This document shows, piece after piece, positions 611 through 28,621 of a stretch of 32,000 nt of DNA. Origin of the DNA: Candidatus Peribacteria bacterium. GTDB lineage: Bacteria > Patescibacteriota > Gracilibacteria > BD1-5 > UBA6164. Both the position numbers and the translations under genes were made by a program. Positions within the stretch are counted from its first letter, which is position 1; every line of letters begins with the position of its first letter. The notes beneath the pieces were generated by a model that saw only the letters and a program-made list of their open reading frames with translations, had not been told where the DNA came from and did no database searches. The stretch covers positions 538,152 through 570,151 of the forward strand of contig CP060226.1 of assembly GCA_023898505.1 (NCBI GenBank), written 5' to 3'.

Positions 611-692
611 CTTTACCATAACTTTTTAAAACCCTTTTAAACTACATACCATTACTTTAAGGCTGACTTGAAAGCCAAGTTGAATAATATTA

Positions 693-727: not shown

Positions 728-756
728 TTCTGCATAAATTCAAAAGACAAAATAAA

Positions 757-1404: not shown

Positions 1405-1462
1405 AAAAACATTATACAAAATAGTATTCTTGTGAATTTCTTTTCTTACAAGGAGTTTATTA

Positions 1463-2716
1463 GTGTGCCATTTTTATAAATTAACTTACTATTTAAATAA
1501 AAATAAAATGGAGTTTTCCAACATAGATAAACTAGAAAAAAAGATTTCTAGAGAAGATAAATTTTTAGATGACTTAGCTATAAAACTAGAAGATGTAAAA
1601 GAAACTTATATTTACATTAAAAGTTTAGCTAAATATTATTGGGTAGAAGCTAAATTATTCTTTTCTCCTAATGATGTTCAAAATAATACTTTACTATCAA
1701 ATAAAGAGCTAAAATTAGTAAGGCAATATTGATTAATATCTACTTATGATAATCTAGTATATAAAAAAGGATGAAAAGACTGATGTTATAACTTGCTTGA
1801 TGAAAATAAAATATTAAAACCATCTAATAATCCTATACTAGATAAGAATATAGATACATTAATATCCAATGTATGCTGATATAAACAAGAAAATATAGAT
1901 TATTTACATAAATCTATTTTATATAAATATATCAATTTAAACGACTTCACTATCCCCGCAGTTGTATTGTATGGCAAATGATGAAGTGGAAAATGAACTT
2001 TGATGTCATTATTAGAAACCATATTTTGTAAAGATAATGTATTATCTAATTTATGACAAAGAGACCTTTCTTGATTTGATGTGTATAGATGATGAAAACT
2101 AGTAGTAGAATTTGCAGAAATAGCAACTAATAACACTCATAGCGATATTTGAATATTAAACAAACTAAAAAATATAATATGAGCCTGAGAAATAACAATA
2201 AATGAAAAATGAGTGAGACAATACCAAATAGACAATATTGCTTGGTTTTTTATTTCATCTAATTCAAATAAGCCTTTACAACTAGATGATAAAGATAAGG
2301 GTAATAGAAGATTTACGATTATTAAATCTAATTCAGCTTTAGAAAATTGAAAAGAAATAAATGAAGCCGTAAGAGATAAAAAAATTGTATCAAATTATTT
2401 AGCTTGGCTTTATGAAAAATTTCCTGAAGTTTTAGAGTATAGGAACTTAATAGCCTTAGATAATGAAGATAAAAGAGATTTAGAAGAAAGAAGTCAAAGT
2501 GAAGCAAATCAATTCTGGGAATGGTTAGAGGATAATTTCCCTGACTATAAAGGTAAAAAAAGAAAAACAGATATAGAAAGTATGATAAATATGTTTTGTA
2601 TAGAAAACTGAGTAGAAGAAAAAGAGTTTTTAAAATATTTTTGGTCTCACTCAAAATATCCTAAAAAGAAAATCAGAATATGAGCTGATACTTACTATTG
2701 AGTAATAATAGAATAA
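1463..2716 (+). CDS. D5/P4-family primase-associated helicase (P-loop NTPase, SF3-like)
   Basis: A GTG start at 1463 lies 7 nt after AAGGAG; an alternative ATG is at 1508. The Walker A motif YGKGGSGKGT has TGA at 1979, 1982 and 1994 as Gly. Downstream, RRFTII resembles D5/P4 C-terminal domains. The stop is TAA at 2714-2716. Confidence 0.8.
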
Positions 2717-2722
2717 ATCTAT

Positions 2723-2782
2723 TAGAACTCTTAGAACATAGAACAATTAAACCTCATAGCTAAAGGATGTTCTAGTGTTCTA
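2723..2782. promoter_or_regulatory. Cluster of TAGAAC iterons (three direct and two inverted copies); candidate operator or origin
   Basis: TAGAAC occurs at 2723-2728, 2732-2737 and 2739-2744. GTTCTA occurs at 2769-2774 and 2777-2782. The cluster lies in the gap between the helicase gene and the HTH module. Confidence 0.5.
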
Positions 2783-2867
2783 TACGTTCCCTTCAAAAAT
2801 AAGGAGTAATTAACCTTATTATTATATATCAAAAACTTAGTACTAAGTCATAATTAATAAAAAATTT

Positions 2868-3011
2868 ATGACAAAAAAAGATTATTCAAACGAATTAAAA
2901 TACTTAGATAAATATGAAGTTGATGAAGAAAAAAAGATAAGATTTATAGAAAACTTATACAAATTAATAAATATAAATTTCAATAATTTCATAGAAAATA
3001 ATTGACAATAA
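2868..3011 (+). CDS. Small hypothetical protein (47 aa)
   Basis: An ATG at 2868 opens a frame that runs to TAA at 3009-3011 with one in-frame TGA. I recognise no domain. Confidence 0.3.
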
Positions 3012-3060
3012 TTATTCTAAGATTATATTATTTATAATTAACAACTAATATATAAGTAAT

Positions 3061-3264
3061 ATGAGAGTAGAAATAAACCTTTGGGAGCTAATGGGTAAGA
3101 ATAAAATGACAGCTTTAGAGTTGTCTTCTCTTACCTGAATTTCTCCTATTCAAATTTCAAAAATTAAAAATTGAAAAACAACAAAAATAGAACTACAAAC
3201 CATAGCAAAACTTTTAGAAGCTTTTGAATGTAGTCCTAATGAATTAATAAAAATAATTAAATAA
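3061..3264 (+). CDS. XRE/Cro-like helix-turn-helix transcriptional regulator (67 aa)
   Basis: The translation MRVEINLWELMGKNKMTALELSSLTGISPIQISKIKNGKTTKIELQTIAKLLEAFECSPNELIKII matches a short HTH_XRE protein. TGA falls at plausible Gly positions. Confidence 0.75.
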
Positions 3265-3276
3265 CTTTCAAAAAAT

Positions 3277-4941
3277 ATGAACAAAACAGCAGTAATATAT
3301 TGTAGAGTGTCTACAGTTAAACAAGAAAATAATTGAGATAGTTTAAACTCACAAGAAAAAGCTTGTAGAAACTATTGTAAAAATAATGATATACAAGTAC
3401 TTTGAGTTTTTAAAGAAGCCTTTAGCTGAAAAACTAAGAGTAGACCTGTTTTCACAGAAGCTATCAATAATGCTAAAGAAAATGATGTGAATTACTTTGT
3501 AATATTTGATATTGATAGATTTTCTAGAGAATGATATTGAGCTTATTCTGATTTAAAAGAAGACCTATACAATAATAAAATAGAGCTTAGAGATAGTAAA
3601 AACATTATTCAAGGTAACAACCTAGCAGTTAAAAATGATATTGTTGATATGGAACAATATAAATGGAATAGAGAAAATTCTAGTGAATATGCAGAGGTTA
3701 TGATTGCAACCCAAGCACAAATAGAATGAAAGAAGATTATCCAAAGAACAATACCAAGAGAAATAGAATTAGAGCAATTATGATACCAAGTTAGAGCCTC
3801 TAATTATTGATACGAAAACAAAAAAGAAAGAACTATACATTGAAAAGTAAGTATACAATCTAAACATCCTATAGAATGAGATTTTTTAATAGAAATGTTT
3901 GAAGCTAGAGCAAAATGATATTTAAGTGATAAAGAAATAGTAGAAAACTTAGTATTAAAATGATGTAAAAAAAGAAGCTGAAAAATTATGGATGTAAAAT
4001 ATATGCAAGAACTTATTAAAAAGCCTATATATGCAGGAATTATATGTACTAAATGGACTTGAAATAATCCTATTAGAACAGCTTATAAATGATTAGTAGA
4101 TATTAAGACTTGGAATAAAGCTAATAGATGAAAAATAGAAATTGTAGAAATAGATGATAAAGAAGTAAAAATAGAATTTAATAACTGAAAAGAAAAACAA
4201 ATTAATAAACCCATAATAGAAAGAAGAAAAAATTATAATTCAAATTATTTTTATTCTAAGGTTTTAAAGTGTCCTCATTGTTGAGGATACTTAACCTGAA
4301 ATGCTTCTAAATCTAGAGATGGTAGCATACACCCATATTATCAATGTAGATGAAAATGATGAGCTAAACATCCTAATTACAGCATAAGACAAAAGGAAGC
4401 ACATAAAACTATTAATGATATATTTAAAGAAATTAATATAAGAGATAATGCTTTCAATCTATATGAAGAATTATCTAAAAGAATTTTTAATGAAAAGAAA
4501 ACAGAGCTAAAAAATAATACTAAAAGTTATGATGAACAGCTTAAAGAATTAGATAAAAAAGAAAGTGAAATATTAGATAATATAGATAAAGTAATAAACT
4601 ATCCTCAAATACTAGAAAAGAAAAATAAAGAACTAGAAGAAATAAAATCACTTAAATATAAACTAGAGCTTAAAAGGAATGAAAAAGATAATACTTCAAG
4701 TTTAGATAAGTTTCTATATTATTCAAAACAAGTCATCACACACATAGATAAATTAGCTATACAAAAGGAAGAACCTGAAATAATCAATCTAGTTTTTGAT
4801 ATAGTTTATGATTGAAAAATAGAATATCAAAATATAAAAAGTCACACACAAGACTTTAGTAGTTTTTTCTCTCAACAAAGCCATCAAAAAAATCCTCAAA
4901 ACGAGGATTTAGTTGGTTTTCTTAAATGGCAGCCCCACTAG
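3277..4941 (+). CDS. Large serine recombinase (integrase)
   Basis: The N-terminus MNKTAVIYCRVSTVKQ is the resolvase catalytic motif. A zinc ribbon KCPHCGGYLTG...YYQCRGKGG follows. The frame is open from 3277 to TAG at 4939-4941 with about 23 in-frame TGA (hand count). Confidence 0.85.
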
Positions 4942-5001
4942 GAGTCGAACCTAGCACGCAGGATTTGGAGTCCTGAATTATAGCCGATTAACTATGGGGC
5001 T
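4927..5001 (-). tRNA. trnW: tRNA-Trp (anticodon CCA)
   Basis: I folded the cloverleaf by hand. The acceptor stem is AGCCCCA/TGGGGCT, the anticodon arm is CAGGA-CTCCAAA-TCCTG, the T-arm is CTAGG-TTCGACT-CCTAG, the discriminator is G, and CCA is encoded. Confidence 0.85.
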
Positions 5002-5002: not shown

Positions 5003-5110
5003 AATCCCCTCCTTATGTTTCTCCCTTTTTCAAAGGGAGTACTCGAGATACGAGAGGGAGGGATTATTATTTATCCCCTCTCCCTACGGGGGAGAGGGTT
5101 AGGGTGAGGG
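5003..5110. repeat. Nested-hairpin repeat cluster, family B (CCCCTCTCCC...GGGAGAGGGG type)
   Basis: aatcccctcc pairs with ggagggatt. Internal hairpins are ctcccttttt caaagggag and cccctctccctacgggggagaggg, followed by ttagggtgaggg. The cluster is closely related to 14941-15045. Confidence 0.8.
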
Positions 5111-7140: not shown

Positions 7141-7287
7141 GGCGATCCCGAGTACTCGGGACAGGAATGCCTTTATGAATATACATCTGTTCCCAAAAAC
7201 TTGGGATTCCCAGATATATTTCTGTCATTCCGTACTTGATACGGAATCATTATTTATGATCCTGAAACCAGTTCAGGATGACCGTCA
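7141..7287. repeat. Hairpin-repeat cluster including a family A unit (7223-7282)
   Basis: The unit is tgtcattccgtacttgatacggaatca, a spacer, then gatcctgaaaccagttcaggatgac. Upstream hairpins are tcccgagtactcggga and ttcccaaaaacttggga. The cluster lies between the S1 gene and rpsB. Confidence 0.8.
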
Positions 7288-7291
7288 AATA

Positions 7292-8524
7292 TTATTTTTC
7301 TTCAGTTGAAGCTTCTTCTGTCTTTTTCTTTTTTGTTTCTTTCTTTGCTGCTGCTACTTCTTCATCAATCTTATCTTCTTGAGATTTTTCTTTCTTTACC
7401 TTTGGCTTTTCCTCTGCTGGCTTTTCTGGAGCTTCTTGAAGAGCTTTAAGTGAAAGACCGATTCTCTTTTTATCTGGTTCAAAGTTGATAATCTTTGCTT
7501 CTACTTCTTCTCCTACTTTCACAAAATCTCTGATATCCTTTACAACTCCGTGAGAAATCTCAGACAAGTGAATCAGTCCTTGAATCCCTCCTTCTAGATC
7601 CATAAAGGCACCAAATTGAGAAATTCTTGAAATTGGAGCTTTGATAGTATCACCAAGTTTGTATTTTCTTGCCAATACTTCCCATGGGTTTTCTTTGAGT
7701 CTCTTCATAGAAAGAGAAATTTTATCTCCTTCAAGTCCGATAACTTTTACTTTTACATTCATCCCCACTTTTGCAAATTTTGATGGATCATGTACATGTC
7801 CCCAATCGATCTCAGATACGTGAACAAGTCCTTCAAGACCATTAAAGGTAACGAAAAGACCGTATGACAAGATACCACTTACTACACCTTCTACGACATC
7901 ACCTTCTTTTAAAGTCTGAAGTGCCTTTTCTCTTGATTCTTCGATTGCAGCTTTTTCAGAGAAGATAATTTTCTTCCCAACTTCATCTACATTGATAACA
8001 CGAACCTTAAATGCTTCACCAACCAAACCTTGAAGGTGTTCAAGGATTTTTTCTGGGTCAGCTCCCTCAACTCTTGGATAGTGAAGAGGAGTCAGTTGTG
8101 AAACTGGGATAAACCCTTTCAGTCCATCGATATCCACAAGAAGACCTCATTTATTTGCTTCGGTTGGTCTCACAGTAATCACCTCAGAAGAATCAAAGTA
8201 TTTACTCAAGTTTGTCAGACTCTTAATCTGATTTGCTCTTTTCAGAGACAAGATAAGGAGTCCTCTATCAATACTATCACCAAGTACCATAACATCGATT
8301 GGCTGACCAGCAGCTAATTCTCCTAATTCAACAGTATTTCCAAGTTCTTTACTAACAACAATTCCAGTAAACTGATTGTTTACATTTACGAGAATATTTT
8401 TCTTCTCGATTTTGATGATGCTCCCAGAAATCACTTCCCCTTCTTTTGGGTACTTAATCTCCGGCGATGCTTTAAACAGCTCTTCAAACAGAGCCATATC
8501 ATCCTGTTTTTGTGCAACAGTCAT
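7292..8524 (-). CDS. rpsA: S1 RNA-binding domain protein (30S ribosomal protein S1-like, about 4 S1 domains)
   Basis: Track ORFs 8147-8524 and 7292-8137 share a frame and are joined by one TGA (8147-8149). This gives ...TEANKGGLLVDIDGLKGFIPVSQL, the conserved KGG of an S1 domain. Repeated GxVxxxxxxGxFV motifs are present. Confidence 0.9.
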
Positions 8525-11211: not shown

Positions 11212-13197
11212 TTACTTCTTCAATAAATTTACAAATGCCTCACTTGGGAGACTTACCCTACCAAACTGCTTCATCTTTTTCTTTCACTTTTTCTGTTTTT
11301 CAAGGAGCTTTCTCTTACGACTTATATCCCCTCCATAGAGTTTTGCGGTTACGTCTTTTCTGAGGGCCGATATATCTTCACGAGCTACGATCTTTCACCC
11401 AACTGCTGCCTGTATCTTGATCGCAAAGAGCGCTCTTGGCACCACTTCTTTCAGTTTTGCACAAACTTTTCCTCCAACATAGTGCGCCTGCTCACGATGA
11501 CAGATAAAACTAAGAGCATCGACTTTCTCATCAGCAATCAGGATATCAAGTTTCACCATATCATCTTCTTTAAACTTGATAAATTCATAGTTCATCGATG
11601 CATATCCAGAACTCAGTGATTTTATCTCATCATAAAAATCTCCTATGAGTTCATTCATCGGAAGTTCATACACAAGCATCACACGCTCACTATCAATAAA
11701 CTGCTGATTTTTAAAAATTCCGCGGCGTTCTTGAGATAACTGCATAAGTGTTCCGACATATTCTGTCGGAGTAATAACCTCTACTTTTGCGATTGGTTCT
11801 TCGATACTCTGGTACTTTTCTCTTGCCGGGAGATCTTCAGGATTTGAGACATATGCATAGGTAAATACAGAATGTCATCCCGTACTTGATACGGGATCAT
11901 TATTTGTACTTCTACTTTTTCATGATTCTGAATCCGCCGAGTTCTCGGGGCGCGCAAGTTCAGAATGACAGAGTTCAGGTTTAAACCTTGAATACTCACT
12001 CGTCTTATCTCCGATAAACTTAACACGATAGGTTACCTGTGGGGCGGTCATAATCACATCCATATCAAACTCTCTGAACAAACGTTCTTTGACAATATCG
12101 AGATGCAATAACCCAAGAAAACCACACCTATACCCATGTCCCAGTGCTGGAGAAACCGATGATTCAATACTGAGTGCCGAATCATTGAGCACGAGTTTTT
12201 CTACGGCATCTTTCAATTGTGGGTACTCAGAACTATCCATCGGAAATATACCCGCAAAGATAAATGGCTTTGCCTCACTAAATCCAGAGATAGGTTTCGC
12301 ATTTTCTGGTTTTTCTTTTGGTCAGAGTGTATTTGCTGGTTTCCAAAGAGTATCTCCAACTTTTGCGTGTTCCAAGGTTTTCAAACCCGTTACTACATAG
12401 CCTACCGAACCGTTTTCTATGATACCATTGGATGTATAGCGAGGAGCAAAGTACCCAACATCAAGCGCCTCTATCTTTTTCCCAGTATGAAGAAAGTGCA
12501 GCATATCCCCTTTACGAATCTCTCACTGAAATACCTTTACATACGACACTACTCCACGATATGAATCATACTGACTATCAAATACCAAAGCTTTCAGTTC
12601 ATCATCCTGACTATTCACTATTCACTGTTCACTCTTCTCTTTATTATATACCTTTGGCTTCCTCACTCTTTCAATCACCGCATCAAGTACCATATCTACA
12701 TTTTGACCCGTTTTTGCAGAAATTGGGATAATTTCATCTTCGCTACATCCAAGCAAATTGATAATTTCTTCACTGACTCTTGGGATATCTGCTGCTGGAA
12801 GATCAATCTTATTTAATACTGGGATGATATCCAGATCATTTTCGATCGCCATGTAGACATTAGAAAGCGTCTGTGCCTCAATCCCCTGCGTCGCATCTAC
12901 AACTAATAGAGCTCCTTCAACAGAAGCCAGGCTGCGAGACACTTCGTACTGAAAATCTACATGACCCGGAGTATCAATAATATTGAACTCATAGCCCTTC
13001 CATTGCATACGTACCGGTTGCAATTTAATCGTAATTCCGCGTTCCTGCTCAAGCTCCATCGTATCGAGCATCTGACCATTTTTCATCTCACGCTTATCCA
13101 GTGTTCCTGTGATTTCTAGGAACCTGTCAGCCAAAGTTGATTTCCCGTGATCTATGTGCGCAATAATACAAAAATTTCTAATCTTTCCGAGTTCCAT
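11212..13197 (-). CDS. lepA: Translation elongation factor 4 (LepA), with an in-frame repeat insertion
   Basis: The N-terminus [20 protein letters not shown] is a GTPase G1 motif, and the C-terminus [27 protein letters not shown] is a LepA hallmark. Five track fragments share one frame and are joined only by TGA. Confidence 0.92.
11873..11970. repeat. Family A double-hairpin element inside the lepA coding sequence
   Basis: The sequence tgtcatcccgtacttgatacgggatca...catgattctgaa[tccgccgagttctcggggcgcgcaag]ttcagaatgaca has the same architecture and orientation as 20079-20155. Confidence 0.85.
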
Positions 13198-13942: not shown

Positions 13943-13969
13943 AGAAGCTCCGTACGGAGCTTCTTTTTT
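13943..13969. terminator. Bidirectional rho-independent terminator between convergent genes
   Basis: The stem agaagctccg / cggagcttct has a 2-nt loop (ta) and is followed by a T-run. Confidence 0.7.
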
Positions 13970-15434
13970 ATCGAACCATCACCCAGACAGATCCCCCCAC
14001 CCCTGACGAAATCCCATATGAAGATGCGAGATCTCCTTTTGCAAAACCATGTGTAGTATTGTTTTGATAATTGTTAGCCCAATAATTCCAACGACTCACT
14101 AGAGAATCACAGTTACCCGCTCTACAGCCATGTGCATCTGAAACTCTATATACTGCTATCTCTTCTGTAGAATTAATACAATCTGAGGTACCCAAATCTA
14201 TACCCCCATATGTACTGTCTCTTCGATTTGTAATCAATGACTCTTTATAGGTAGCATAATAAAACCAATACTTTCTTAACCCATTATCATAGGTGTAGTA
14301 GGCTTCATTCTGAATGCATGTTTGTGGAGATATTCAGGTAGACTCAAAAGCACGCGATTGAATAAATCAATTTGGCACAAAAAATCCATAGTACTTCGTT
14401 GTATCTCCATCTATCCCCATAGATACTTCTGTAAACATCAGTTCAGAGGCATCAAGTGAATAATCATATCCTGGGTTTAGGTTCGTAGGAGTATCTCCAA
14501 TAACTGCATCGAAGAAAGTAGCACTGGGATAACTACCATCTGTTACTCATATGAGCATCCAACCGCCTCAGTCTGTAGTCATATCACAGTATACGGAAGT
14601 TTCTGTACTTCCATCTGGGTAAATAGTGTATATATCGGACCCTAAGCTTTTTCCCGCATATAATATATCAAGACAACTTGTAGGATTACTCATATGTGCA
14701 GTGATGCTCAGTACATACAACGTACTTCAAGTTCCCACTGTACTTTTCACGTCTGTGAAATTTGCCGTATAGGTGTCTGTAGTAAGGGCTATGTCAAGGT
14801 AACCTGAGTTTGTTACCGTAGTTACCTCTTGTATCGGAGCATTGGTTCAGGACTGGGTGAGGATACCAAGCTTATGTCCATTTACCGTTGAGTATCTGTT
14901 TGTGTAGTCTGTCGCTGCATGGGCTTGTGGGATGAAAGCTCCCCCTAGCCATGATATCTCCTCACCCCAGCCCTCTCCTTTGAGAGGAGAGGGAGTTATA
15001 GTTCCCCCTTCTCCCACAAGGGAGAGGGGGCTAGGGGGTGAGGGTATTTGTGTAAGAAGGTTTTCCTCTTCTTCAAGAAATGCCATCAATTGGAAGTATT
15101 TCTTATCACTCGTGAGGTAGTAGGAAAAGTAGGTGGAGTCTTTTGGGTCTTTTCCTCCTTTGGTAAAGTCTATCGTTTCAAGAACTCCTTCTCCAGCATA
15201 GCCTTGGTAGGCAATAGTCGTTCCATTAGACTTTACTTCTACGTAGTCATCTGGAAGAGGGAGGTCTTTTTCTGTTCTATAGAGTTCAAGTCCATCATGG
15301 AGTGCCGTAAGTTGAGAGATACGATTCGTATCTCTCGTTCAAGCGAGGTAGGAGCTATATGAGACAAAGCCTACGGTAGAGAGGATACCGAGGATTACGA
15401 CGACTACGATAAGTTCGACTAATGTAAACGCCAG
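13968..15434 (-). CDS. Type IV pilin-like protein with a C-terminal fibrinogen-related domain (FReD); the start codon is uncertain
   Basis: The N-terminus AFTLVELIVVVVILGILSTVGFV is a class III signal/pilin helix. The C-terminal sequence SCLDILYAGKSLGSDIYTIYPDGSTETSVYCDMTTDGGGWMLI is the fibrinogen C-domain signature, with TGA at 14578-14580 as a Gly in DGGGW. No ATG, GTG or TTG lies upstream in frame, so I placed the 5' end at CTG 15432-15434. Confidence 0.75.
14941..15045. repeat. Family B nested palindromic element inside the pilin-like coding sequence
   Basis: ccccctagcc (14941-14950) pairs with ggctaggggg (15030-15039). Inner hairpins are ccctctcctttgagaggagaggg and cccccttctcccacaagggagaggggg. 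The element is related to the intergenic copy at 5073-5110. Confidence 0.85.
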
Positions 15435-15440
15435 CTTGTC

Positions 15441-15500
15441 TGGTCCCGAATGCTCGGGAAGGGTGAATCCTTTACTCCTTCCGTTCGTAGGAAAGGATGT
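15441..15500. repeat. Double-hairpin repeat in the 5' region of the pilin-like gene
   Basis: The hairpins are gtcccgaatgctcgggaa and tcctttactccttccgttcgtaggaaagga. Confidence 0.6.
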
Positions 15501-15583
15501 TTATATTTGTTTGCATACAAAAAAATAGTTTACATATTCACTCCTAGTATAGCGAGAAAGAAAGGAAGAAAAAATGAGGGAAT

Positions 15584-15618
15584 AAAAAACCTCTTTACAA
15601 AATGTAAAGAGGTTTTTT
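15584..15618. terminator. Bidirectional rho-independent terminator after the large pilin-like gene
   Basis: The stem aacctctttaca / tgtaaagaggtt is flanked by an A-run and a T-run, immediately after the TAA at 15620-15622. Confidence 0.7.
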
Positions 15619-15619
15619 A

Positions 15620-18600
15620 TTATTTAAACGGATACTCTGCAAATGCCATATAAATAAATGTTCACCCGGACTCATTATGAGAAGTCCCTCTAAGTTTAAA
15701 TCCATTCGAAAGAAAATCAGCCCAGACAGCATATTGTTCAGCATTATCGGCACTTGCCATAAGGTAATCGCTGATAACATTATAAGGAGAACGCACCGAA
15801 TCTATCATTCACCACTGACTGGTAGAATCTACTCTTTTTGAAAGTATAAATTTCGGCTTAAACCCAGTATATACAAACGGACCATCAGTATTTCCATTTC
15901 CGGTATAACTTCCAAACTTTGAAAAACCAGGTTTTTCAGAAAAAAGATACGCAACGTGTTGTGCACCAACTACATTTGTTGCCGTTGAATCTCAAACTGT
16001 AAAAAAATCATTATCTGGAAGAGTATCATTCCAGTGATTAAAGGTAGAGGGGGTCAAGTCCTCTACATCATTTGTATCTAGAAGCAATCTATATTTTTCT
16101 GAACTAACTCAACCATTAAGATCTTGATGATATAATGGCCAATTACTTACAGAATCTCTATTTTTAATAATCATGACATCCGGTCTTGTTCATAAATTAT
16201 GCGGAATCTTCTTTCCTGCAACACCATCTCATATATACGCGACAATATCAAATCCTGAAGTAGCTGATTCTTTCCAATTCCAAGCCACATAAGTATTCGC
16301 AGCACTATTATAATCTTGTATGGATCCACTTAAAGTAAATCCATTAAAATCAAACGATGTAAAAAAACTAGGAGCCGAATATTCTGAGTCTGTAAGATTT
16401 GAACGTAATTCTTTATCTACTCCTCTGATAGAATCTCGTAACATGTGATCAGCACCAGTTACATCTCTGTTTTTAATCCACACCAAATCTGGCTGAAAGT
16501 TAAGGCCTGTAATATGATGATCTGTTAAGCCGTTTCATGCATAGGTAAGTACATCAAAGTATGCATTTGCATCTTCAATCACAGAAGCATATCCCGTTAC
16601 TAAATTATAGGCATAACTCTGAGGAATAAAATCTGAACTCCAACGAGCTATATCCTTTGAAATACGTATTTCATCCATATATCCATCAAAATAATCACTC
16701 CCTCCACCGTATTTCTTCCCAATAAAGATATCACTATTTAAGTCAGGAAGGATATTACTATCAATCGGAGTAATAGTACTCAGAGGTAAAGCAGAACCAT
16801 TTACATATATACTAAAACCTGTTCCAGACCTGACCGCTGCCACATGATACCACTCTCCTGTACTGAAATTATGCATAGCACTATACTCTGCCAGTATATT
16901 GGAACCACCATTTTTTGAAGTAAAATAGATATCTGTCGCATCCATAGAAATCGTGGTACGGAAGTTTGAGTTTGGACTATCATACATCTGTCCTATAAGT
17001 CCAGCAGAACCGAGACTATTAAAATATATCCAGAAGTCTATCGTAAAATCTCCATCAGCAAAATCCCAGTAAGCAGAGTCTGGTATTTGTAAATAATCAC
17101 CATTCCCATCAAATGCAATACTGGTTGTTCCAATTTTACGTTCATCAGTAGTATGATGTGTGTCGCCATATACCTGTATCGTATGTGCTGATCATGAGAT
17201 ATCTTGGATATCTGTGGATCCATCAGCAGTATTGGAGCGGATAAGAAGCGGGGTATTGGTGTCATAAACAGGAGTAGAATCTGGGAGATTTGAAGTAGAC
17301 AGAGCGGTGAAAGCTATTGGCGGTTCATATTTAAAATATCATCCCGCATTTTCATAATACGTAAGTCAAGATTGTCATCATTGTCAAAAGTTTGAGTTTA
17401 CACTTGAGTTTCGATAATGGTTTATAGCGAAAGTTCAAGATGCGTCTCCTGTCATCGAGATAATTGCCGTTGGATTTACCCCTTGAGAAGGGTTTCCATC
17501 AGTACTTCCGGGGGTGCTTCAAAACCAGACACTATTTTTTCAAAACCATACCTTTCAAGTACTAAAATCTGCTGCAATCATCACTGTATCCCCTACCTCA
17601 ATTTTTGGATATCCTCATACCCAAGACCCATTTTTATAAATTCTCCCATCAGCCGTACCATAGTAGTTTGCATATGAAGCTGATACAAGATTATTATCAC
17701 TATTATAGACTATAAACTCTGGTCTACTAAGCTCAGTAACAGTATCAAGAGAGACAATAGTATGTTCTGTATAATACTTCCCAGAGGCACCGATAGTTTG
17801 AATCGTACTCAAAAAAAATTCATCAGCAGAACTACTCGTATTTCCAATTTGTAAATTTCCATGACTAAAGTCAGAATACTGATACGGACGGAGACTATTC
17901 CAGACAGCAAAATTATTCTGAGGCGTATCAATCACTTGATCAGTACTATCAAGATTATTCGCAGAAAAGTGATGGGCATTTCCACTCGTATCTTTTCCTA
18001 AAATCGAACTATCCGAAAAATTCAGATGAAATCCGTTGGTTCCATAGGTTCCTGTGTATTCTTTTGGTATCCATTTACCATTAGATTGAGATTCTCAGAA
18101 ACTATCTGGAGTGAGTGCTTGTCCATCGATAAAGTATACTTCGGTCATATATCCATCTAAAAAATTCTCAATATTATGCCCCAATGTTTCTTCAAATGCT
18201 CACACATAATGGTTTTGTTGACTATTTATCCACGTTTCATAGTTTAGACTTGGATATGTTGATAATAACAAACCTGTTATTTCTTCTCCATTAACAAAGA
18301 TGGATACCGATGACGCTGTTGTATCAACGGAAATTTGTATATGGTACCAGCTACTTACATCACGAAATTTTGCAGTAGTCTGAATATCTATCTCATGTGC
18401 TCATCAATCATGGTCAGAAGCAAATCTTAGAGTATCATCACTCATAAAAGAGAAAAATGTTTTATTACTATTTCCTCATGACGTTGCAGAAAACAATGTT
18501 TGAGTTCTCTCAAGACCCGATCTTTTTACCCATCCGCTCCACGTCCACTTTCTTCTATCTCAATCCTGAGATGGGGTTCTAGATAAATATGTATCATCTG

Positions 18601-19474
18601 AACTATTAAATCTCAGAGAATTCGTAATTTCAAAAGCATTGCTCACCGTATCCAAGGAATCACTACTAAAGTCACAGGTCACTACCACTGCTCCTGTACC
18701 ACTTGGAAACACTGTAAACTCTCCTGTAGTCCCAGCAAGACTTGGTAGTACCTGCAGTAAATCATCACAATTCTCTACCGTCTTTCCTCCCTGCGATACC
18801 ATATTTGCAAGTGGCGCAAGATTAGTAGCATCTCCAGATATGGTCGTTTCTGGATCTATATGTCCGACAAAATTATCAGACGTAGTTCCAATATCTAGAC
18901 CTCACGAAGCAATAATTGCAGGTAACTCTTGAATTGGAGTATTACTCCCCGATTGTGTCAACACACCAAGAGAATCCCCGGTCACATACACATATCGTTC
19001 ACTATAATCAATATCGCTTGCATGAGCAATACCTCACCCTAGCCCACTCCTTAAGGAACTTGGAGTGATCATAGCATTCAGATATTCATCTGTTTCCAAA
19101 AAACCAAGAAGTTGGTAATACTTTCTATTTTCTCCTACATAATAGGTATAATAGGCATCATCTTGAGGATCCTTTCCGCCATCTGAAAATCAAATCGAAC
19201 CAAGCACTTGTTCGCCAGCATAGCCTTGATACCCAATCGTCGCCCCACTATAACTTACGGTTACATCATCATCGGGCATTGGAAGCAAACGCTGTACACG
19301 ATAGTCTTCTAGCCCTGATCGGATGTTTCATAATACGCTAATTCTATTACCATCTCGTGCTGAACTGATATACCCCGTATAGGTAATAAAAGAAATCCCC
19401 GCCAATATAATCAGTATGGTCGTCGCAACCAAAAGCTCCACCATCGTAAAGGCTCAAGCATTACGCAGTATCAT
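15620..19474 (-). CDS. Giant pilin-like surface protein (about 1284 aa) with LamG-like, SPRY and LamG-like domains plus a duplicated C-terminal module
   Basis: The N-terminus is MILRNAGAFTMVELLVATTILIILAGISF. The first roughly 120 aa are paralogous to gene 13968-15434. The SPRY signature is GKYYTEHTI...GDTVMIAADFSTGKVWFGKNS...NFGQGG...YFKYEPP. The LamG signature is GEWYHVAAVRSGTGFSIYVNG...FDGYMDEIRIS. All track fragments share one frame and are joined by TGA. An alternative ATG lies at 19537. Confidence 0.8.
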
Positions 19475-19479
19475 ACCCC

Positions 19480-19535
19480 TATCCCTCTCGTCCCTCGAGT
19501 ACTTTCCCCTTACAGGAGAAAGAGTTATATCTTTC
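19480..19535. repeat. Hairpin repeat in the 5' leader of the giant pilin-like gene
   Basis: The sequence ccctatccctctcgtccctcgagtactttccccttacaggagaaagag is related to families B and C. Confidence 0.55.
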
Positions 19536-19651
19536 ATATTCTTAAAGATATTGAATAAAACTAAATTTTACAAGATGAGACCCCGAATTCACCGAGATAT
19601 ACGAGTATGGAAATAACATCCCTCCTCCGTATACTTCTCCCCCTCATTTAT

Positions 19652-20713
19652 CTATGTACCTTTTCCCTTTTCCATTCTTCCCTTTCGTCTTTTCTCTTTT
19701 ATCTTTCATCTTTCATCTATTTCCAATTCTTTCACTACCTCTATCCACTCTTCAATTCCCAATTCTTCTCCCCTCACAGTATCCGAAATACTCAGTTTTT
19801 CAAATATCACTAGTATTTTCCCCTTGTCATATCCACTATTTAATAAGTTCTTCAGTAGCTTTTTTCTCGGTTCACGAAAACCCTGTTTAATAATTTCTAA
19901 AAATACTCCATCATCGATATCTCTATAATTATCATGAGTTATAAAGTGAAGAACGATAGATTCTACCTTTGGCGCAGGATAAAAGTGCTCTTTCGGCACA
20001 ACACAAACTTCCCTCACAAAACACTTTTTTGCGATAAAAAGTCAGAGGACTGAAGAGCGTATTTTTTTATCACTTCTGTGTCATCCCGTACTTGATACGG
20101 GATGATAATTTGTACCTTTACATTTTCATGATTCTGAAACAAGTTCAGAATGACAAATAGATCTCTGTCAGCTTAAAATTTTCCTCCCCACATCCTCCTG
20201 CATCATAATCGCCATCTCTTGAGGAGATGTAGAAACTTCATAGAGAAAGTGCCTAAGAATCGGAGAAGTGATATAATACGGGATATTTGCGATGACTGAG
20301 TAATTAATTTGTCATTCTGAACTTGATTCAGAATCATTAATAGTATCTTTACTCTTTCATAGATTCCTGCCTCCGCAGGAATGACATACGTGAAATATCG
20401 GTTCATACTTAAGGACATCGATATGCTCGATGTTAACATTCAGTCCTTCAATTTGCAATTCTCCTGTCTGTATTCTCTGCTCAAGGATGGTGATCATATC
20501 TGGATCAAGCTCCACGAGAGTCAAAGATTGTGGTATTTGCGTCAGGAGTTTTTCGGTGAGTGCCCCATACCCTGGACCTACTTCCACGATATTTTTTCCA
20601 TCTACCTCAATAGCTGTTGCAATATTTTCTAGACTTCCTTCATCTACAAGAAAATTTTGTCCCAAAGATTTTTTTGCGTGGAGTTTATATTTTTGTATAC
20701 TTTGTGGAAGCAT
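19652..20713 (-). CDS. rsmA: 16S rRNA (adenine1518/1519-N6)-dimethyltransferase RsmA/KsgA, with two in-frame repeat insertions
   Basis: Supporting motifs are KKSLGQNFLVD, VEVGPGYGALTEKL, ANIPYYITSPIL and FYPAPKVESIVL. I chose the ATG at 20711-20713. The frame reads through several TGA to TAG at 19652-19654. Confidence 0.88.
20079..20155. repeat. Family A double-hairpin element inside the rsmA coding sequence
   Basis: The sequence tgtcatcccgtacttgatacgggatgataatttgtacctttacattttcatgattctgaaacaagttcagaatgaca is near-identical in its arms to the lepA copy. Confidence 0.85.
20310..20386. repeat. Family A variant double-hairpin element inside the rsmA coding sequence
   Basis: The sequence is tgtcattctgaacttgattcagaatcattaatagtatctttactctttcatagattcctgcctccgcaggaatgaca. 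Confidence 0.8.
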
Positions 20714-20765: not shown

Positions 20766-23700
20766 ATGCAATTGATTCCAGATCTTACTCTCTGAAAAAA
20801 ATGGTGACTACGATTTTTGAGCGTACTCATTATCCTAGTATCACTCTGACAGTCGGCTTTTGCCCTCACTACAAGCACCAATTATGCAGGAACGGCAAAT
20901 GATCTCTTGGATAACAGTTTTCTATGGGTAACCCCTTCAAATGCCACAGGTGATACAACAGGGACCTCAGCTAGCAATACCATTACTACGAGAAATACCA
21001 ATGGAAATACGCTTGCGCTTACGACTTTCGGATTTACCTCTGGAGATATACCAAGTGGAGCAACAATTGAGGGGATACAAGCAGAAGTAGAGTGGCTCAG
21101 TAGTAACAACCGTATGCAGGATCAGGTAGTACAATTAACAAAAGACGGAACCACAGGGGTCGGAAGTAACTATGCAAATAACACTGGTCTTACCACTAAA
21201 TGATTCACGACATACGGAGGAACGACCGATCTTTGGGGAACCACCTGGACTCCAAGTGACCTTAGCTCTTGAAGCTTCTGAATCCTCCTCCAGTATAGAA
21301 ATAGAAGAAACTCAGCACAAACAGTAAATATTTATAGAGTACGCATCACTGTAAGCTACTCGATTCCAAGTGGTCCTGGGGGTGTTACGGGTAATGTATC
21401 CATATGGCTCAAGGCAAATGAAGGAACCAGCACAACCACGGATGGAAATGCTCTTTCTACCTGGTCTGACCAATCAGGAAATGGGTATGATGCCACAGGA
21501 GGATGAGCAACCAGACCAAGGTTTCGTGATAATACTACTGATAACATCAACTACCATCCAGTTGTCGACTTTAATGGAACCTCTCAATATTTACAAAATC
21601 TGGCAAATGGAGCCAGTTCAGAAAGTGCATTTATCGTCCTCAAACCAGTAAATGGGGTAAATGGGACTGCTTCGTACTGAGTCCCTTTCGGTTGGGATTG
21701 TCTCTCTGGAAACCTCAGTACTGGAACCTGCGGACTCAGCTTTGCAGGAATTACTCTTGGAGCCTTTACCGCAGCAATACCAGATGAAGTAGTAACCCTA
21801 GCACTCGGTTCATCAACCAACTGGAGATCCTCACAAACATGACTTGCATCGTATGATATTGGTGAAACGATGCTTCTTGTTTCAAACACAAATGCGGGTA
21901 ATACCGCAACTGATATCTATGAAAAAGGACAGCTCGTGAGTAATTACTCCGTCAACACCTTTCAGACACTTGCAACCGCTGATTATAATATCGGGCGTTC
22001 ACCAGATGCAGCAAATCCATTTTACTACGGAGGAACTATTGCTGAAATTATAAACTTTAGTTCACGAGTGACAGATAGCGAAAGACAACAGATAGAATCC
22101 TACCTCGCACTGAAATATGGAATCACGCTCAATGCTGGATGAACCGACTATATCGCCTCCGATGGAACCACGACTATATGGTCCACAAGCACGGCGGGGA
22201 GCTATACAAATAGTATCTTTGGTATTGGACGTGATGATAGCTCAGAACTCGGACAGATCACCTCAAAGTCCATGAATCCAGATGGGATCGTCACTGTGGT
22301 GGCTGTCGGAGAAGGAACTAATGCTACGCCAGCATTTGTAGACATAAGCGATAAAGAGTTTCTTACAATTTCTGACAACCTCTGAGGAAATAGTTGGGTC
22401 GCTACCGATAGCCCCCTTGGATATGATATCCTCGATAGAAAGTGGTTGTACCAAGAACAAGGAGATGTCGGAGCAATAACCCTTGATATCGATGTAGACG
22501 ATGCTGATTTCGATATACCCGTGCTTAATTCATGAGTGAATTATTTTTATATCTATGATAGTAATGGGAATGGAAGTCTCTCAGATGAGGTCCCTCAAGT
22601 GATGGTAAACACCAGTGGAAGTATCTGGGAAATGGCAAGCCTCAGTGTCACCAGCGGACGTATCTTTACCTTTGCTACCCTTTCATCGAGTAACAACATC
22701 CCGACAGATATTAGCATATCGAGTACAAGTACCAATGAAAATGTTGCGTCTGGAAGTCTTATAGGAACATTTACCACTACTGATCTTGATATTACTGATA
22801 CCCATACCTATAGTTTCGTTGCGGGTACATGAGATGACGACAATACCCTCTTTACCATAAGCGGAAGTGAACTTCATATTGCTGAGTCTCCAGACTATGA
22901 ACTCAACACTAGCTACTCTATCCGCGTGGAAACCGATGATGGAAATGGAGGGACTTTTCAGAAATCATTTACTATCTCGGTAAATAACCTCGGCGAAACT
23001 ATTACCACCATCATCGATTTTGAAGTCTCTGGAAAATATAGTGTGACATCAGGAACTTGGAATCGAAATACTAATAATCCTCAAGAATCAAGCTTTGCGC
23101 TTGAAAGTGACAATGGTTGAGGAGCAAATACTCAGTCCTGTTTTGAAGTCACCCATAACACGAGCGTCACGGGAAGTATCGACTTTTATTATGCCGTCGA
23201 TTCACAGGCATGAGGAGATACCCTAAATTTTTATATAGATGATGTAGAAGATACAAATTGGTCAGGAAATATTGCCTATACAAACTATACTGTCTCAGAT
23301 ATTGCGGGAGGACCTCATACCTATAAATGGTGTTATATCAAAAATGGAAGTGTGAATACTGGTCTAGATGCTGCTTGGATCGATTATATCGTATTTACCA
23401 ATGCGGCGAGTGATAGCACCCCACCAACTATATCAGTAACAGCTCCATGAAGTGGTTCACTCCTCCCAAATGCAGATTTTACTCTAGATTTGAGCTATAG
23501 CGACGCCGAATCATGAGTGAATACTGGGAGCATATCAGTAGTACTCAGAAAGTGGAATGGGAGTTCCTATGGAGTTGATATTGCTCCAACCTATGTAAAT
23601 TTTGGTGGTGCTACGATCGGCGCTTCTACAGCATCATACCCAGTTACAAAAATGGGCTATGGGAGATATATATTTGAAGTGAGTATCAATGACAATAGTA

Positions 23701-24137
23701 GTAACAACGGAACAGGAGCTTCCCTACTCTATCTTGATGAACCTGAAATCATTATCTCAACAGGAGCTATCGATATCGGGTTTCTTGATGCAAATGGAGT
23801 AAGTTTTAGTAGTCAAGAGTTAACTATTACCGTGAATACTGTTTGAGCTGCCTATGATCTTGTCCTCGTCAATGAGAACCTCCTGAGCTACTCTGGTACG
23901 ACGATTTTGGATTGGGATGGAAGTACTGGATATGGATATGAACAAAGCCCCTATACCCTCACCGTCACGCCGATAGGAACTGGGGCAATCCTTGTCTCTG
24001 AACCAGCAAATCTCAACGTCGATGGAAATAGAAATACCAATATTTACTCGATACAGCTTTGATGACAAGTAGATGAGCAGCAAGCCGCTGGAGACTATAC
24101 CGGAAATATACAGTTTTTGCTTGATGTAGATTATTAA
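20766..24137 (+). CDS. Large secreted surface protein (1123 aa) with LamG/ConA-like and cadherin-like domains
   Basis: The ATG at 20766 gives a signal-peptide-like N-terminus LRFLSVLIILVSLGQSAFA. The LamG end motif is FYYGGTIAEIINFSSRVTDSERQQIESYLALKYGITLN. The cadherin-like repeat is PTDISISSTSTNENVASGSLIGTFTTTD...YSIRVETDDGNGGTFQKSFTISVNN. Five track fragments share one frame. Confidence 0.8.
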
Positions 24138-27220: not shown

Positions 27221-27295
27221 GCTCCCATCGTCTAGCGGTTAGGACGCTGCCCTCTCACGGCGGAAACAGGAGTTCGATTCTCCTTGGGAGTACCA
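27221..27295 (+). tRNA. trnE: tRNA-Glu (anticodon CTC)
   Basis: The hand fold gives acceptor GCTCCCA/TGGGAGT (G1-U72), D-arm GTCT-AGCGGTTA-GGAC, anticodon arm CTGCC-CTCTCAC-GGCGG and T-arm AGGAG-TTCGATT-CTCCT, with an encoded ACCA end. Confidence 0.85.
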
Positions 27296-27296: not shown

Positions 27297-27348
27297 AAAA
27301 ATCTCTTGTGAGTAAAATCTATTTGATTTTATTTGCGAGAGATTTTTA
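27297..27348. terminator. Long hairpin, likely a bidirectional terminator
   Basis: aaaaatctct...agagattttt encloses agtaaaatc/gattttat. Confidence 0.55.
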
Positions 27349-27416
27349 AATTGTAAGTTCCAGGAGATGAGAAACTGAGGCACTTAATAATTCTCTCGAG
27401 GCAAGTATATGGAAAA

Positions 27417-28367: not shown

Positions 28368-28379
28368 AATTCTAATTTT

Positions 28380-28595: not shown

Positions 28596-28621
28596 GGTAT
28601 TTTAGTTAAAATTTAAAGTTT

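What the first reader, a model, noticed from the sequence alone, without database searches (positions are those of the whole stretch)
13968..14700. Fibrinogen-related domain fused to a type IV pilin-like N-terminus
The C-terminal roughly 230 aa carry the animal-type fibrinogen C-domain signature SC.DIL..G...S..Y.I.P.......VYCDM.TDGGGW. They end with Cys-rich, carbohydrate-binding-like segments. The N-terminus is a pilin transmembrane helix. Fibrinogen-related domains are, to my knowledge, uncommon in bacteria. Displayed on a pilus of a presumed epibiotic or parasitic CPR cell, this protein would be a plausible lectin for host-cell attachment.
Basis: partly seen in the sequence, partly recalled or inferred. 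Interest (0 to 1): 0.65.

Follow-up and report, generated by a model that had tools for sequence, protein, structure and literature searches.

The report
Pilin carrying a fibrinogen-like lectin head
This gene, from a tiny TGA=glycine (Gracilibacteria-type) bacterium, fuses a type IV pilin anchor to a divergent fibrinogen/intelectin-like domain, probably a sticky pilus tip for gripping a host cell, and this design is already catalogued and common in these bacteria.

Summary
The minus-strand frame 15500..13968 then encodes 510 codons. These comprise a prepilin motif (DKLA|FTLVELIVV...), a pilin head and a small beta domain. A linker follows, carrying an in-frame GC-rich hairpin element, and then a 242-aa C-terminal domain (14696-13971).

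That domain passes Pfam Fibrinogen_C (29.7 bits, cutoff 22) and NCBIfam NF040941, 'fibrinogen-like YCDxxxxGGGW' (54.5 bits, cutoff 30). Sequence similarity to animal fibrinogen-related domains stops after about 47 residues.

AlphaFold models of two homologues (42% and about 37-44% identical) match only fibrinogen-superfamily structures in the PDB. Intelectins rank first. TM-scores are 0.3-0.47, and the ligand-binding third is poorly modelled.

The architecture is not new:
- Raynaud et al. 2021 list pilin-fibrinogen_C 'modular pilins'.
- NCBI already names such Gracilibacteria proteins.
- I found 33 pilin-GGGW protein clusters.

This particular head subfamily is rare. Its nearest non-CPR relatives come from breviate protists.

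Caveats: there is no in-frame start codon, the window holds no pilus-assembly genes, and the lectin function is inferred. Verdict: a new member of a known kind, of moderate interest.

The parts
13968..15500 (-). Whole open frame of the modular pilin (510 sense codons under code 25, including 7 TGA=Gly, plus a TAA stop at 13970-13968). It is bounded upstream by an in-frame TAA at 15503-15501.
15357..15428 (-). Mature pilin N-terminus (alpha1N): F1 TLV E5 LIVVVVILGILSTVGFVSY. It is preceded by ...PDKLA, with Ala at position -1.
   Evidence: PF07963 25.8 bits and TIGR02532 25.5 bits. F1 aligns to residue 1 of the solved pilins 1oqw, 6gv9, 8pfb and 5wda.
15075..15428 (-). Pilin module (alpha1 helix plus globular head). 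It is 45% identical to the N-terminus of the neighbouring 1305-aa pilin.
   Evidence: The AlphaFold model of homologue P0027 has a helix at residues 26-74 followed by a beta-sheet at 83-141, with pLDDT above 90.
14941..15044 (.). GC-rich compound palindrome (two hairpins flanked by CCTCACCCC/GGGGTGAGG). It lies in-frame in the linker and encodes about 35 extra residues (PSPPSPLSLVGEGGTITPSPLKGEGWGE...). A shorter version sits at the same site in the paralogue.
   Evidence: Two independent Logan contigs, 100% identical to the window, both end at 14931.
14697..14960 (-). Conserved spacer, a small beta domain between the pilin head and the lectin-like head. It is shared with paralogues that carry other heads.
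13971..14696 (-). C-terminal fibrinogen/intelectin-like domain (aa 269-510). It has six conserved Cys and the motifs SC..IL, YCDMTTDGGGW, FES..G.ETC, ESLITNRRD..GGIDL, D.H.C.AGNC and a terminal VWVMVR.
   Evidence: Homologue models and fold searches.
14550..14678 (-). The only stretch with significant sequence similarity to animal fibrinogen-related domains (the A subdomain, YCDxxxxGGGW).
   Evidence: Pfam profile positions 4-46 of 221; NF040941 positions 1-46 of 46. hhalign aligned 47 columns with probability 98.2%.
15472..15516 (-). Out-of-frame ATG (15516-15514) opening a 14-codon ORF that ends at TAA 15474-15472. A one-base indel within 15475-15500 would join it to the pilin frame.
15581..15621 (-). 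Intrinsic-terminator-like hairpin after the upstream pilin gene. It implies the target is transcribed from its own start region.
15620..19537 (-). Adjacent paralogous modular pilin (1305 aa). It has the same pilin scaffold but different heads: two Laminin_G_3 domains, an SPRY-like stretch and DUF7483.

Best explanation
The gene encodes a modular minor type IV pilin of a code-25 CPR bacterium (Gracilibacteria/Absconditabacteria type).

Shown:
- The N-terminus carries a class III signal motif, with cleavage before F1 and Glu at +5.
- A hydrophobic alpha1N helix follows.
- A pilin head follows that, modelled on a homologue.
- The C-terminal 242-aa head belongs to the fibrinogen-related/intelectin (X-type lectin) fold superfamily.

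Inferred:
- A prepilin peptidase removes the leader.
- The pilin module inserts into a type IV filament. Because the head is bulky, the protein sits at the pilus tip, as modelled for the Streptococcus sanguinis modular pilin PilB.
- The head binds a surface ligand on the host or prey cell. A glycan or another anionic envelope component is most likely.
- Pilus retraction then pulls the epibiont onto its host.

The same scaffold carries many different heads in this lineage. The region after the GGGW motif is hypervariable between clusters, which fits a repertoire of host-recognition adhesins.
For: Genetic code and lineage. Close homologues lie on code-25 contigs of 27-28% GC. P0028 is NCBI MCT4616699.1, named 'fibrinogen-like YCDxxxxGGGW domain-containing protein [Candidatus Gracilibacteria]'.

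Pilin identity:
- PF07963 and TIGR02532 score above their cutoffs.
- The alpha1 helix aligns from residue 1 of solved pilins.
- The AlphaFold model of family member P0027 shows a 49-residue N-terminal helix followed by an antiparallel sheet.

Head domain:
- Pfam and NCBIfam hits.
- The family profile matches intelectin-type lectins best in the PDB (XEEL 2.6e-10, intelectin-1 2.4e-8), then fibrinogen, angiopoietin and ficolin.
- Two independent homologue models (pLDDT 78 and 79) hit only fibrinogen-superfamily structures. Foldseek probability is 1.0, and cores of about 120-130 columns align at 3-5 A.
- The C-terminal strand VWVMVR parallels the terminal MK(I/V)RP strand of animal domains.

Modular design:
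- The N-terminal 226 aa are 45% identical to the adjacent 1305-aa pilin, which carries LamG and DUF7483 heads.
- In L001 a pilin with this head sits next to one with a weak Laminin_G_3 match (18.7 bits, below the 27.6 cutoff).
- 33 of 35 retrieved pilin-motif clusters carry YCDM..GGGW at about residue 240-280 with divergent tails.
- The pilin-fused NRRD subfamily forms a clade with 100% bootstrap.

Precedent:
- PMC8179133 shows that a modular pilin is a tip adhesin, and its dataset lists IPR012902-IPR002181.
- Gracilibacteria express type IV pili, which are essential for host adhesion in Saccharibacteria (PMC11452946).
- Vampirococcus has a rich type IV pilus repertoire (PMC8080830).
Against: - No in-frame ATG, GTG or TTG lies upstream of the pilin motif. 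The only ATG is one base out of frame, so the copy may be untranslated or the assembly may be wrong.
- Position -1 is Ala rather than the usual Gly, although most relatives share this.
- No pilus-assembly or peptidase genes occur in the 32 kb.
Fold evidence therefore comes from homologues.
- TM-scores stay below 0.5. The segment corresponding to the ligand-binding subdomain has pLDDT of about 45-65.
- Canonical Ca2+ and ligand motifs of ficolins and fibrinogen are not detectable.
- No bacterial member of this domain family has a tested ligand in the literature I searched.
Confidence: 0.6

Rival explanations
1. The copy in this window is a decaying or silent paralogue. The 5' end is frameshifted and a hairpin element has expanded in the linker, so no functional pilin is made. 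Alternatively it is made only after a slip that restores the frame (phase-variation-like).
For: - No canonical start lies in frame. ATG 15516-15514 is one base out of frame and its ORF stops at 15474-15472.
- A strong Shine-Dalgarno sequence plus ATG at 15545-15533 is followed at once by TAA.
- A palindrome of about 105 nt (RNA folding energy -59 kcal/mol) is embedded in the coding region.
Against: - The remaining 510 codons are open, with no TAA or TAG stop and only the seven TGA codons read as Gly.
- All family-invariant residues and all six Cys are kept.
- In-frame palindromic inserts also occur in the essential genes LepA and RsmA here, so they are evidently tolerated.
- Relatives also carry such peptide stretches in their leaders.
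- A single-base assembly error would give the same picture.
Confidence: 0.18
2. The protein is not built into an extended pilus. Either the N-terminal helix simply anchors the lectin-like head in the membrane, or the protein belongs to a short pseudopilus of a secretion or competence system.
For: - The N-terminal helix also gives partial matches to GspG, GspH and ComGD models.
- No pilus genes are adjacent.
- CPR bacteria use type IV filament systems for DNA uptake as well (PMC8080830).
Against: - The partial secretion-pseudopilin scores are far below their cutoffs (28 against 88.85 bits).
- The scaffold has a full pilin head plus a spacer domain.
- Dozens of scaffold-plus-head variants exist. 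This suits exposed adhesins better than periplasmic pseudopilins, especially in cells thought to lack an outer membrane (established knowledge of CPR bacteria).
Confidence: 0.15
3. The head is not a lectin. It binds a protein or peptide ligand, as the fibrinogen gamma, tenascin and angiopoietin domains do, or it mediates self-association between the bacterium's own cells.
For: - Fibrinogen, tenascin and angiopoietin domains appear among the sequence and structural matches.
- The family-conserved residues in the variable part include two Arg, an Asp and a His. These do not match any known sugar-binding site that I could map.
Against: - The best profile and fold matches are carbohydrate-binding intelectins and ficolins.
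- The neighbouring paralogues carry concanavalin-like lectin heads.
Confidence: 0.12
4. The fibrinogen-like signature is a chance or convergent short motif with no evolutionary link to fibrinogen-related domains.
For: Sequence similarity covers only about 47 residues.
Against: - E-values reach 8e-15 and hhalign probability is 98.2%.
- The conserved Cys pair is present.
- Fold searches of two models return exclusively this superfamily, over 120 to more than 300 columns.
Confidence: 0.02

Closest known systems
Modular type IV pilins (Raynaud et al. 2021, PNAS; S. sanguinis PilB with a vWA head and PilC with a concanavalin-like lectin head)
   Same: A class III signal motif and a small pilin module are joined by a linker to a ligand-binding module that is not specific to pili. 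The paper's InterPro census lists the very architecture IPR012902-IPR002181 (pilin motif plus fibrinogen C): 8 proteins, plus 2 with an extra domain.
   Different: The head here is fibrinogen/intelectin-like rather than vWA or LamG. The scaffold has an extra beta spacer domain. The host organism is a code-25 CPR bacterium. Nothing has been tested experimentally.
NCBIfam NF040941 'fibrinogen-like YCDxxxxGGGW domain-containing protein' (GGGWT_bact), including Candidatus Gracilibacteria MCT4616699.1 (P0028)
   Same: The target scores 54.5 bits against a cutoff of 30. Domain 2 of P0028 is 42% identical over the whole 243-aa head.
   Different: P0028 has a Sec-type signal peptide and two tandem heads, not a pilin anchor. 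The NCBIfam model covers only the 46-aa motif. Most proteins carrying it have unrelated tails.
Intelectins / X-type lectins (human intelectin-1 4wmq and 6usc, Xenopus XEEL 4wmo, lamprey serum lectin 7e1e)
   Same: They are the best PDB matches both by family profile (E 2.6e-10 to 2.5e-8) and by fold (E about 5e-6, TM 0.46-0.47). Like intelectins, the family lacks the canonical QRR.DGS.DF motif after GGGWT.
   Different: Sequence alignment covers only about 50 residues. TM is below 0.5. The Ca2+ and diol-binding residues of intelectin could not be mapped.
Animal fibrinogen-related domains (Pfam PF00147: ficolins, fibrinogen beta/gamma, tenascin, angiopoietin, FIBCD1)
   Same: They share the A-subdomain signature with its Cys pair, a central sheet closed by the C-terminal strand, and a structural core of about 120 aligned columns at 3-5 A.
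   Different: Profile positions 47-221 are not matched. The P-subdomain motifs (DxDxD Ca2+ loop, NCA...GGWWY..C..NLNG) are not recognisable.
Breviate protist secreted proteins (Pygsuia biforma P0035, P0040, P0089; Lenisia limosa P0041, P0153; EukProt)
   Same: They are the only non-CPR full-length relatives of this head subfamily. They share the ETC, S/TNRRD..GGID and C..G.C motifs and the terminal V.V/IR.
   Different: They have a signal peptide plus a coiled coil instead of a pilin, they are read with the standard code, and they form a separate group in a rough tree.

Membership tests
Type IV pilin (class III signal peptide; PF07963 / TIGR02532) | Cleavage motif [G/A]|F-x-x-x-E with Glu at +5 | tested here: met
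   The motif is ...DKLA|FTLVE. PF07963 scores 25.8 bits (cutoff 21.2) and TIGR02532 scores 25.5 bits (cutoff 16.3). F1 aligns to mature residue 1 of solved pilins. Position -1 is Ala, as in most relatives.
Type IV pilin (class III signal peptide; PF07963 / TIGR02532) | About 20 hydrophobic residues forming alpha1N, followed by an alpha-beta pilin head | tested here: met
   The hydrophobic stretch is FTLVELIVVVVILGILSTVGFVSY. The head was seen only in the AlphaFold model of homologue P0027: helix 26-74, then strands 83-141, with pLDDT above 90.
Type IV pilin (class III signal peptide; PF07963 / TIGR02532) | Short leader peptide that starts at an initiation codon | tested here: not met
   No ATG, GTG or TTG lies in frame between the TAA at 15503-15501 and F1 at 15428. 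There is only a CTG at 15434. ATG 15516-15514 is one base out of frame.
Type IV pilin (class III signal peptide; PF07963 / TIGR02532) | Prepilin peptidase and assembly machinery (PilD, PilB, PilC) in the same genome; incorporation into filaments | not testable with these tools
   None of these genes lies in the 32-kb window, and the rest of the genome is not available. The literature reports type IV pili in Gracilibacteria and Absconditabacteria.
Fibrinogen-related domain (Pfam PF00147) | A-subdomain signature C...YCDM.TDGGGWT with a whole-protein score above the gathering threshold | tested here: met
   29.7 bits against 22, E = 7e-7, aa 275-317.
Fibrinogen-related domain (Pfam PF00147) | Match along the whole domain of about 220 positions (B and P subdomains, Ca2+ loop, NCA...GGWW motif) | tested here: not met
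   Only profile positions 4-46 of 221 are matched. phmmer against the PDB covers query 28-84 only. hhalign against an animal alignment aligns 47 columns.
Fibrinogen-related domain (Pfam PF00147) | Fibrinogen-type fold | tested here: inconclusive
   The test used homologue models, not the target itself. All top PDB hits are from this superfamily (probability 1.0, E from 5e-6 to 1e-3). However, TM is 0.30-0.47 and residues 160-235 of the model have low confidence.
NCBIfam NF040941 (GGGWT_bact) | Score above the curated cutoff over the 46-position model | tested here: met
   54.5 bits against 30, covering profile positions 1-46 of 46.
Intelectin / X-type lectin | Full-length similarity and the Ca2+-coordinating ligand site | tested here: inconclusive
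   Intelectins are the best profile and fold matches. Only about 50 residues align by sequence, and TM is at most 0.47. Ligand-site residues were not mappable because no model coordinates were available.
Modular pilin (sensu PMC8179133) | [quoted passage not shown] | tested here: met
   The same architecture is listed in the paper's Dataset S1.

The most novel reading that the evidence does not exclude
This rare head subfamily (motifs ETC, S/TNRRD..GGID and terminal VW.MVR) may have been exchanged between code-25 CPR bacteria and breviate protists (Pygsuia, Lenisia). It may be an intelectin-like lectin that Gracilibacteria mounted on a pilin scaffold and then diversified into dozens of head variants to recognise host surfaces. 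If so, the hypervariable heads would be the long-sought host-range determinants of these uncultured epibionts, and they could hint at an association with protists or their bacterial epibionts.
Probability: 0.2. Interest if true: 0.65.

Novelty: new member of a known kind. Interest (0 to 1): 0.4.

Why it matters
Type IV pili are the best-supported attachment device of CPR epibionts, but the molecules that recognise the host are unknown. A pilin with a lectin-type head is a concrete candidate that could be expressed and tested. The family of pilin-GGGW variants found here suggests a repertoire of such heads in Gracilibacteria and Absconditabacteria. The case also shows that fibrinogen/intelectin-like domains are not special to animals. 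It also shows that code-25 genes are fragmented or mistranslated in public protein sets (Trp for Gly, or broken ORFs), which hides these families.

Tried and rejected
- Modelling the target itself failed. Structure prediction and the search of protein representatives refuse the code-25 translation. I used P0028 domain 2 and P0027 as proxies. P0001 and P0002 carry 27 and 35 Trp-for-Gly errors, so they were not used as the sequences to model (they remain among the alignment rows).
- The search for related loci with the broad alignment A3 found no conserved stretch. With the narrower alignment A6, the genome scan gave only one full-length locus (L003). The metagenome scan gave none, only matches to the N-terminal motif.
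- A profile-profile comparison, intended to extend homology with animal domains beyond the motif, did not extend it.
- Literature searches for fibrinogen + pilin + CPR, and for GGGW, returned nothing specific.
- The whole-protein fold search did not surface pilin structures, because head-domain hits filled the list. I used a sequence search of the N-terminal module instead.
- I first read the linker palindrome as a recent insertion. I rejected that because the paralogue has a shorter version at the same site.
- A recent animal-to-bacterium transfer is unlikely, given the wide prokaryotic spread of the motif. The direction of any exchange with breviates remains unresolved. My neighbour-joining tree is rough, with low support outside two clades.
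Full report
**Observation.** With the standard bacterial code, the region 13968-14700 holds only fragments of 89 and 50 aa. Translating the minus strand shows one frame interrupted only by TGA. One TGA falls exactly where fibrinogen-type domains have glycine: CDMTTD*GGW.

Treating TGA as a sense codon raises stop-free stretches of at least 200 aa in the window from 6 to 25. It also restores a 661-aa LepA. TGA falls on family-invariant glycines in the target. In LepA it falls on the Gly of the conserved C-terminal ...KQK.GKK.MK... motif (the comparison with E. coli LepA is from memory).

The window therefore uses genetic code 25, which is known only from Gracilibacteria and Absconditabacteria (established knowledge). 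Under that code the frame is open from 15500 to the TAA at 13970-13968, giving 510 codons.

**Anatomy**.
- aa 1-24: a leader-like stretch ending in DKLA.
- aa 25-48: FTLVELIVVVVILGILSTVGFVSY.
- aa 49 to about 142: the pilin head.
- aa 146-180: a peptide encoded by a GC-rich compound palindrome.
- aa 181-268: a conserved spacer.
- aa 269-510: the fibrinogen-like head.

Pfam gives N_methyl (25.8 bits; cutoff 21.2) and Fibrinogen_C (29.7 bits; cutoff 22). The Fibrinogen_C match covers only profile positions 4-46 of 221. NCBIfam gives NF040941, 'fibrinogen-like YCDxxxxGGGW domain' (54.5 bits; cutoff 30), and TIGR02532. The N-terminal module aligns from mature residue 1 with solved pilins: PAK pilin, Geobacter PilA, PpdD, S. 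sanguinis PilE1 and GspG.

**How far the fibrinogen similarity goes.** By sequence, about 47 residues. A phmmer search of the PDB, the Pfam match and an hhalign comparison of the family alignment with animal domains (98.2% probability, 47 columns) all stop after GGGWTL. The canonical continuation (QRR.DGS.DF..., NCA...GGWWY..C..NLNG) is absent.

The tools would not accept the code-25 translation, so I modelled two relatives:
- P0028 domain 2, 42% identical to the target head, from an NCBI Gracilibacteria protein. Model pLDDT is 78.3 and pTM is 0.82.
- P0027 at full length, a pilin-fused member of the target's own clade. Model pLDDT is 79.1.

Foldseek against the PDB returned only fibrinogen-superfamily structures for both models. 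For P0028, intelectin-1, XEEL and the lamprey lectin came first (E about 5e-6, TM 0.46-0.47). Fibrinogen, tenascin, ficolin and FIBCD1 followed, with cores of about 120-130 aligned columns at 3-5 A. For P0027, ficolins and intelectin-1 came first.

The family profile also matches intelectin-type lectins best by sequence. The segment that corresponds to the ligand-binding subdomain is poorly predicted (pLDDT about 45-65). The head is therefore a divergent, intelectin-leaning member of the fibrinogen-related superfamily. It is not a canonical 'animal-type' domain.

**Relatives.** An exhaustive HMMER search of 1.84 billion representative proteins used a profile built from P0001, P0002 and the window's last 122 residues. 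It found 206 proteins at E <= 1e-3 but only 7 at E <= 1e-30. One of those 7 (P0025) matches only the repeated motif.

Full-length members are:
- The pilin-fused proteins P0001, P0002, P0024 and P0027. P0001, P0002 and P0024 lie on code-25 contigs of 27-28% GC; P0027's DNA was not examined. All four were mistranslated with Trp for TGA.
- The Sec-signal protein P0028 (Candidatus Gracilibacteria).
- P0174 and P0029.
- Proteins from the breviate protists Pygsuia biforma and Lenisia limosa, which have a signal peptide plus a coiled coil.

The window's own 89-aa table-11 fragment is in the database as P0030. In a rough neighbour-joining tree the pilin-fused proteins form a clade with 100% bootstrap, and the breviate proteins group apart.

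By contrast, the 46-aa motif is widespread. A pattern scan of GTDB species genomes gave 408 confirmed loci. They occur in Myxococcota, Bdellovibrionota, Bradymonadia, Pseudoalteromonas, CPR phyla and DPANN archaea.

Among the proteins I retrieved, 33 of 35 with a pilin motif also carry YCDM..GGGW at about residue 240-280. Their tails are divergent, and each ends in a hydrophobic strand plus Arg or Lys. Pacebacteria and other CPR pilin fusions, and an archaellin-like fusion, also exist.

**Context.** The upstream gene (15620-19537, minus strand) is a 1305-aa paralogue. Its first 226 residues are 45% identical to the target, but its heads are two Laminin_G_3 domains, an SPRY-like stretch and DUF7483. 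A terminator-like hairpin separates the two genes.

In L001 a pilin with this head also sits next to a pilin with the same scaffold whose C-terminal part gives a weak Laminin_G_3 match (18.7 bits, below the 27.6 cutoff). Only these two pilin-motif genes occur in the window. No assembly genes are present.

Neighbouring genes are LepA, a cNMP-binding protein, RsmA, a 1123-aa secreted protein with a below-cutoff cadherin-domain match, transporters and two mobile islands.

**Mechanism.** The best-supported reading is a modular minor pilin in the sense of Raynaud et al. 2021 (PMC8179133). A pilin module carries a functional head, which is displayed most probably at the pilus tip. Their S. sanguinis PilB is a proven adhesin. 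Their InterPro census already lists IPR012902-IPR002181 (8 proteins) and IPR012902-IPR013545-IPR002181 (2 proteins).

Type IV pili are expressed in Gracilibacteria. They are essential for host adhesion in Saccharibacteria and abundant in the predatory Vampirococcus.

What is shown:
- The motif and the scaffold.
- Membership of the fold superfamily, established on homologues.
- The swapping of heads on a shared scaffold.

What is inferred:
- Processing of the leader by a prepilin peptidase.
- Location at the pilus tip.
- Glycan binding by the head.
- A role in host attachment.

**Caveats.** There is no in-frame initiation codon. ATG 15516-15514 is one base out of frame, and its ORF ends at 15474-15472. 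A single-base indel in 15475-15500 would fuse the two frames. This could be a real frameshift, a slip-prone switch or an assembly error.

The linker contains a palindrome of about 105 nt (14941-15044). Two Logan contigs identical to the window both end at 14931, which behaves like a repeat boundary. The paralogue has a shorter version at the same site.

**Comparison and novelty.** In mode of action, this most resembles the S. sanguinis modular pilins PilB and PilC. By family, it passes the tests for the pilin motif, NF040941 and the Pfam threshold. It fails full-length membership of canonical PF00147. Its status as an intelectin is unresolved.

Both the architecture and the naming already exist in public resources, so this is a new member of a known kind. 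What is less expected is the rarity of this head subfamily, its link to breviate protists, and the size of the pilin-GGGW repertoire in code-25 bacteria. Interest: 0.4.

Noticed in passing
window 7210-7300, 11860-11950, 20066-20156, 20297-20387: A palindromic repeat family of about 90-100 nt, with ends TGTCATyCyG...CAGAATGACA. One copy is intergenic. One lies in-frame inside LepA and adds about 35 aa ([35 protein letters not shown]). Two lie in-frame inside RsmA/KsgA. This is reminiscent of Rickettsia palindromic elements, selfish DNA inside coding genes (comparison from memory).
   Followed up: partly
window 14941-15044; also 19010-19060 and 5075-5110: A separate GC-rich hairpin element (CCCTCTCC..GGAGAGGG plus GGGTGAGG) lies in-frame in the linker of the target pilin. 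A shorter form sits at the same site in the paralogue, and another lies just downstream of tsf. Short-read contigs break at its edge (14931). The leaders of related pilins P0115 and P0118 contain similar translated stretches.
   Followed up: partly
window 1-5000 and about 27300-31300: Two low-GC islands (21-28% GC, against 33-44% for the core) encode glycine mostly with TGA. Examples: 23 TGA against 5 GGN in the serine recombinase, and 35 against 8 in the helicase. LepA, a core gene, has 7 against 38.
- Island 1 carries a primase zinc ribbon, a DUF5906/VapE-like protein and a large serine recombinase, and abuts tRNA-Trp(CCA) at 4927-5001.
- Island 2 carries Fic, a CcbP-like protein and a TOTE conflict-system primase-helicase, and follows tRNA-Glu at 27221-27295.
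These appear to be mobile elements adapted to code 25.
   Followed up: partly
window 15530-15545: A strong Shine-Dalgarno sequence (AGGAG) is followed after 5 nt by ATG and then immediately by TAA. This start-stop mini-ORF lies just upstream of the pilin frame, which itself lacks a start codon.
   Followed up: no
window 15620-19537 (-) and 20766-24137 (+): Two large surface proteins flank RsmA. One is a 1305-aa modular pilin with two Laminin_G_3 domains, an SPRY-like stretch and DUF7483. The other is a 1123-aa signal-peptide protein with a cadherin-domain match just below the Pfam cutoff (26.9 vs 28.8 bits). Together with the target they form a cluster of putative adhesins.
   Followed up: partly
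loci L003-L081 (GTDB genome scan): The YCDM..GGGW motif domain turns up mainly in predatory or host-dependent lineages: Bdellovibrio, Halobacteriovorax, Bacteriovorax, Myxococcota, Bradymonadia, CPR phyla and DPANN archaea. It also occurs in Pseudoalteromonas. This may indicate a cell-cell recognition role, but I did no enrichment statistics.
   Followed up: no
proteins P0035, P0040, P0089 (Pygsuia biforma) and P0041, P0153 (Lenisia limosa): Breviate protist transcriptomes encode the closest non-CPR full-length relatives of this head, behind a signal peptide and a coiled coil. This could reflect inter-domain gene transfer or an old shared family. Contamination is not excluded.
   Followed up: partly
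proteins P0025, P0031, P0033, P0123 and others: Giant proteins of 2,000-6,800 aa contain 5-14 tandem copies of just the roughly 50-aa GGGW module. The A subdomain can therefore occur as a stand-alone repeat.
   Followed up: no
public protein sets (P0001, P0002, P0024, P0026, P0027, P0030, P0038): Code-25 genes are stored either mistranslated (Trp at every TGA, 27-35 per protein) or as table-11 fragments. The window's own gene exists only as an 89-aa piece. This hides the family from routine searches.
   Followed up: yes
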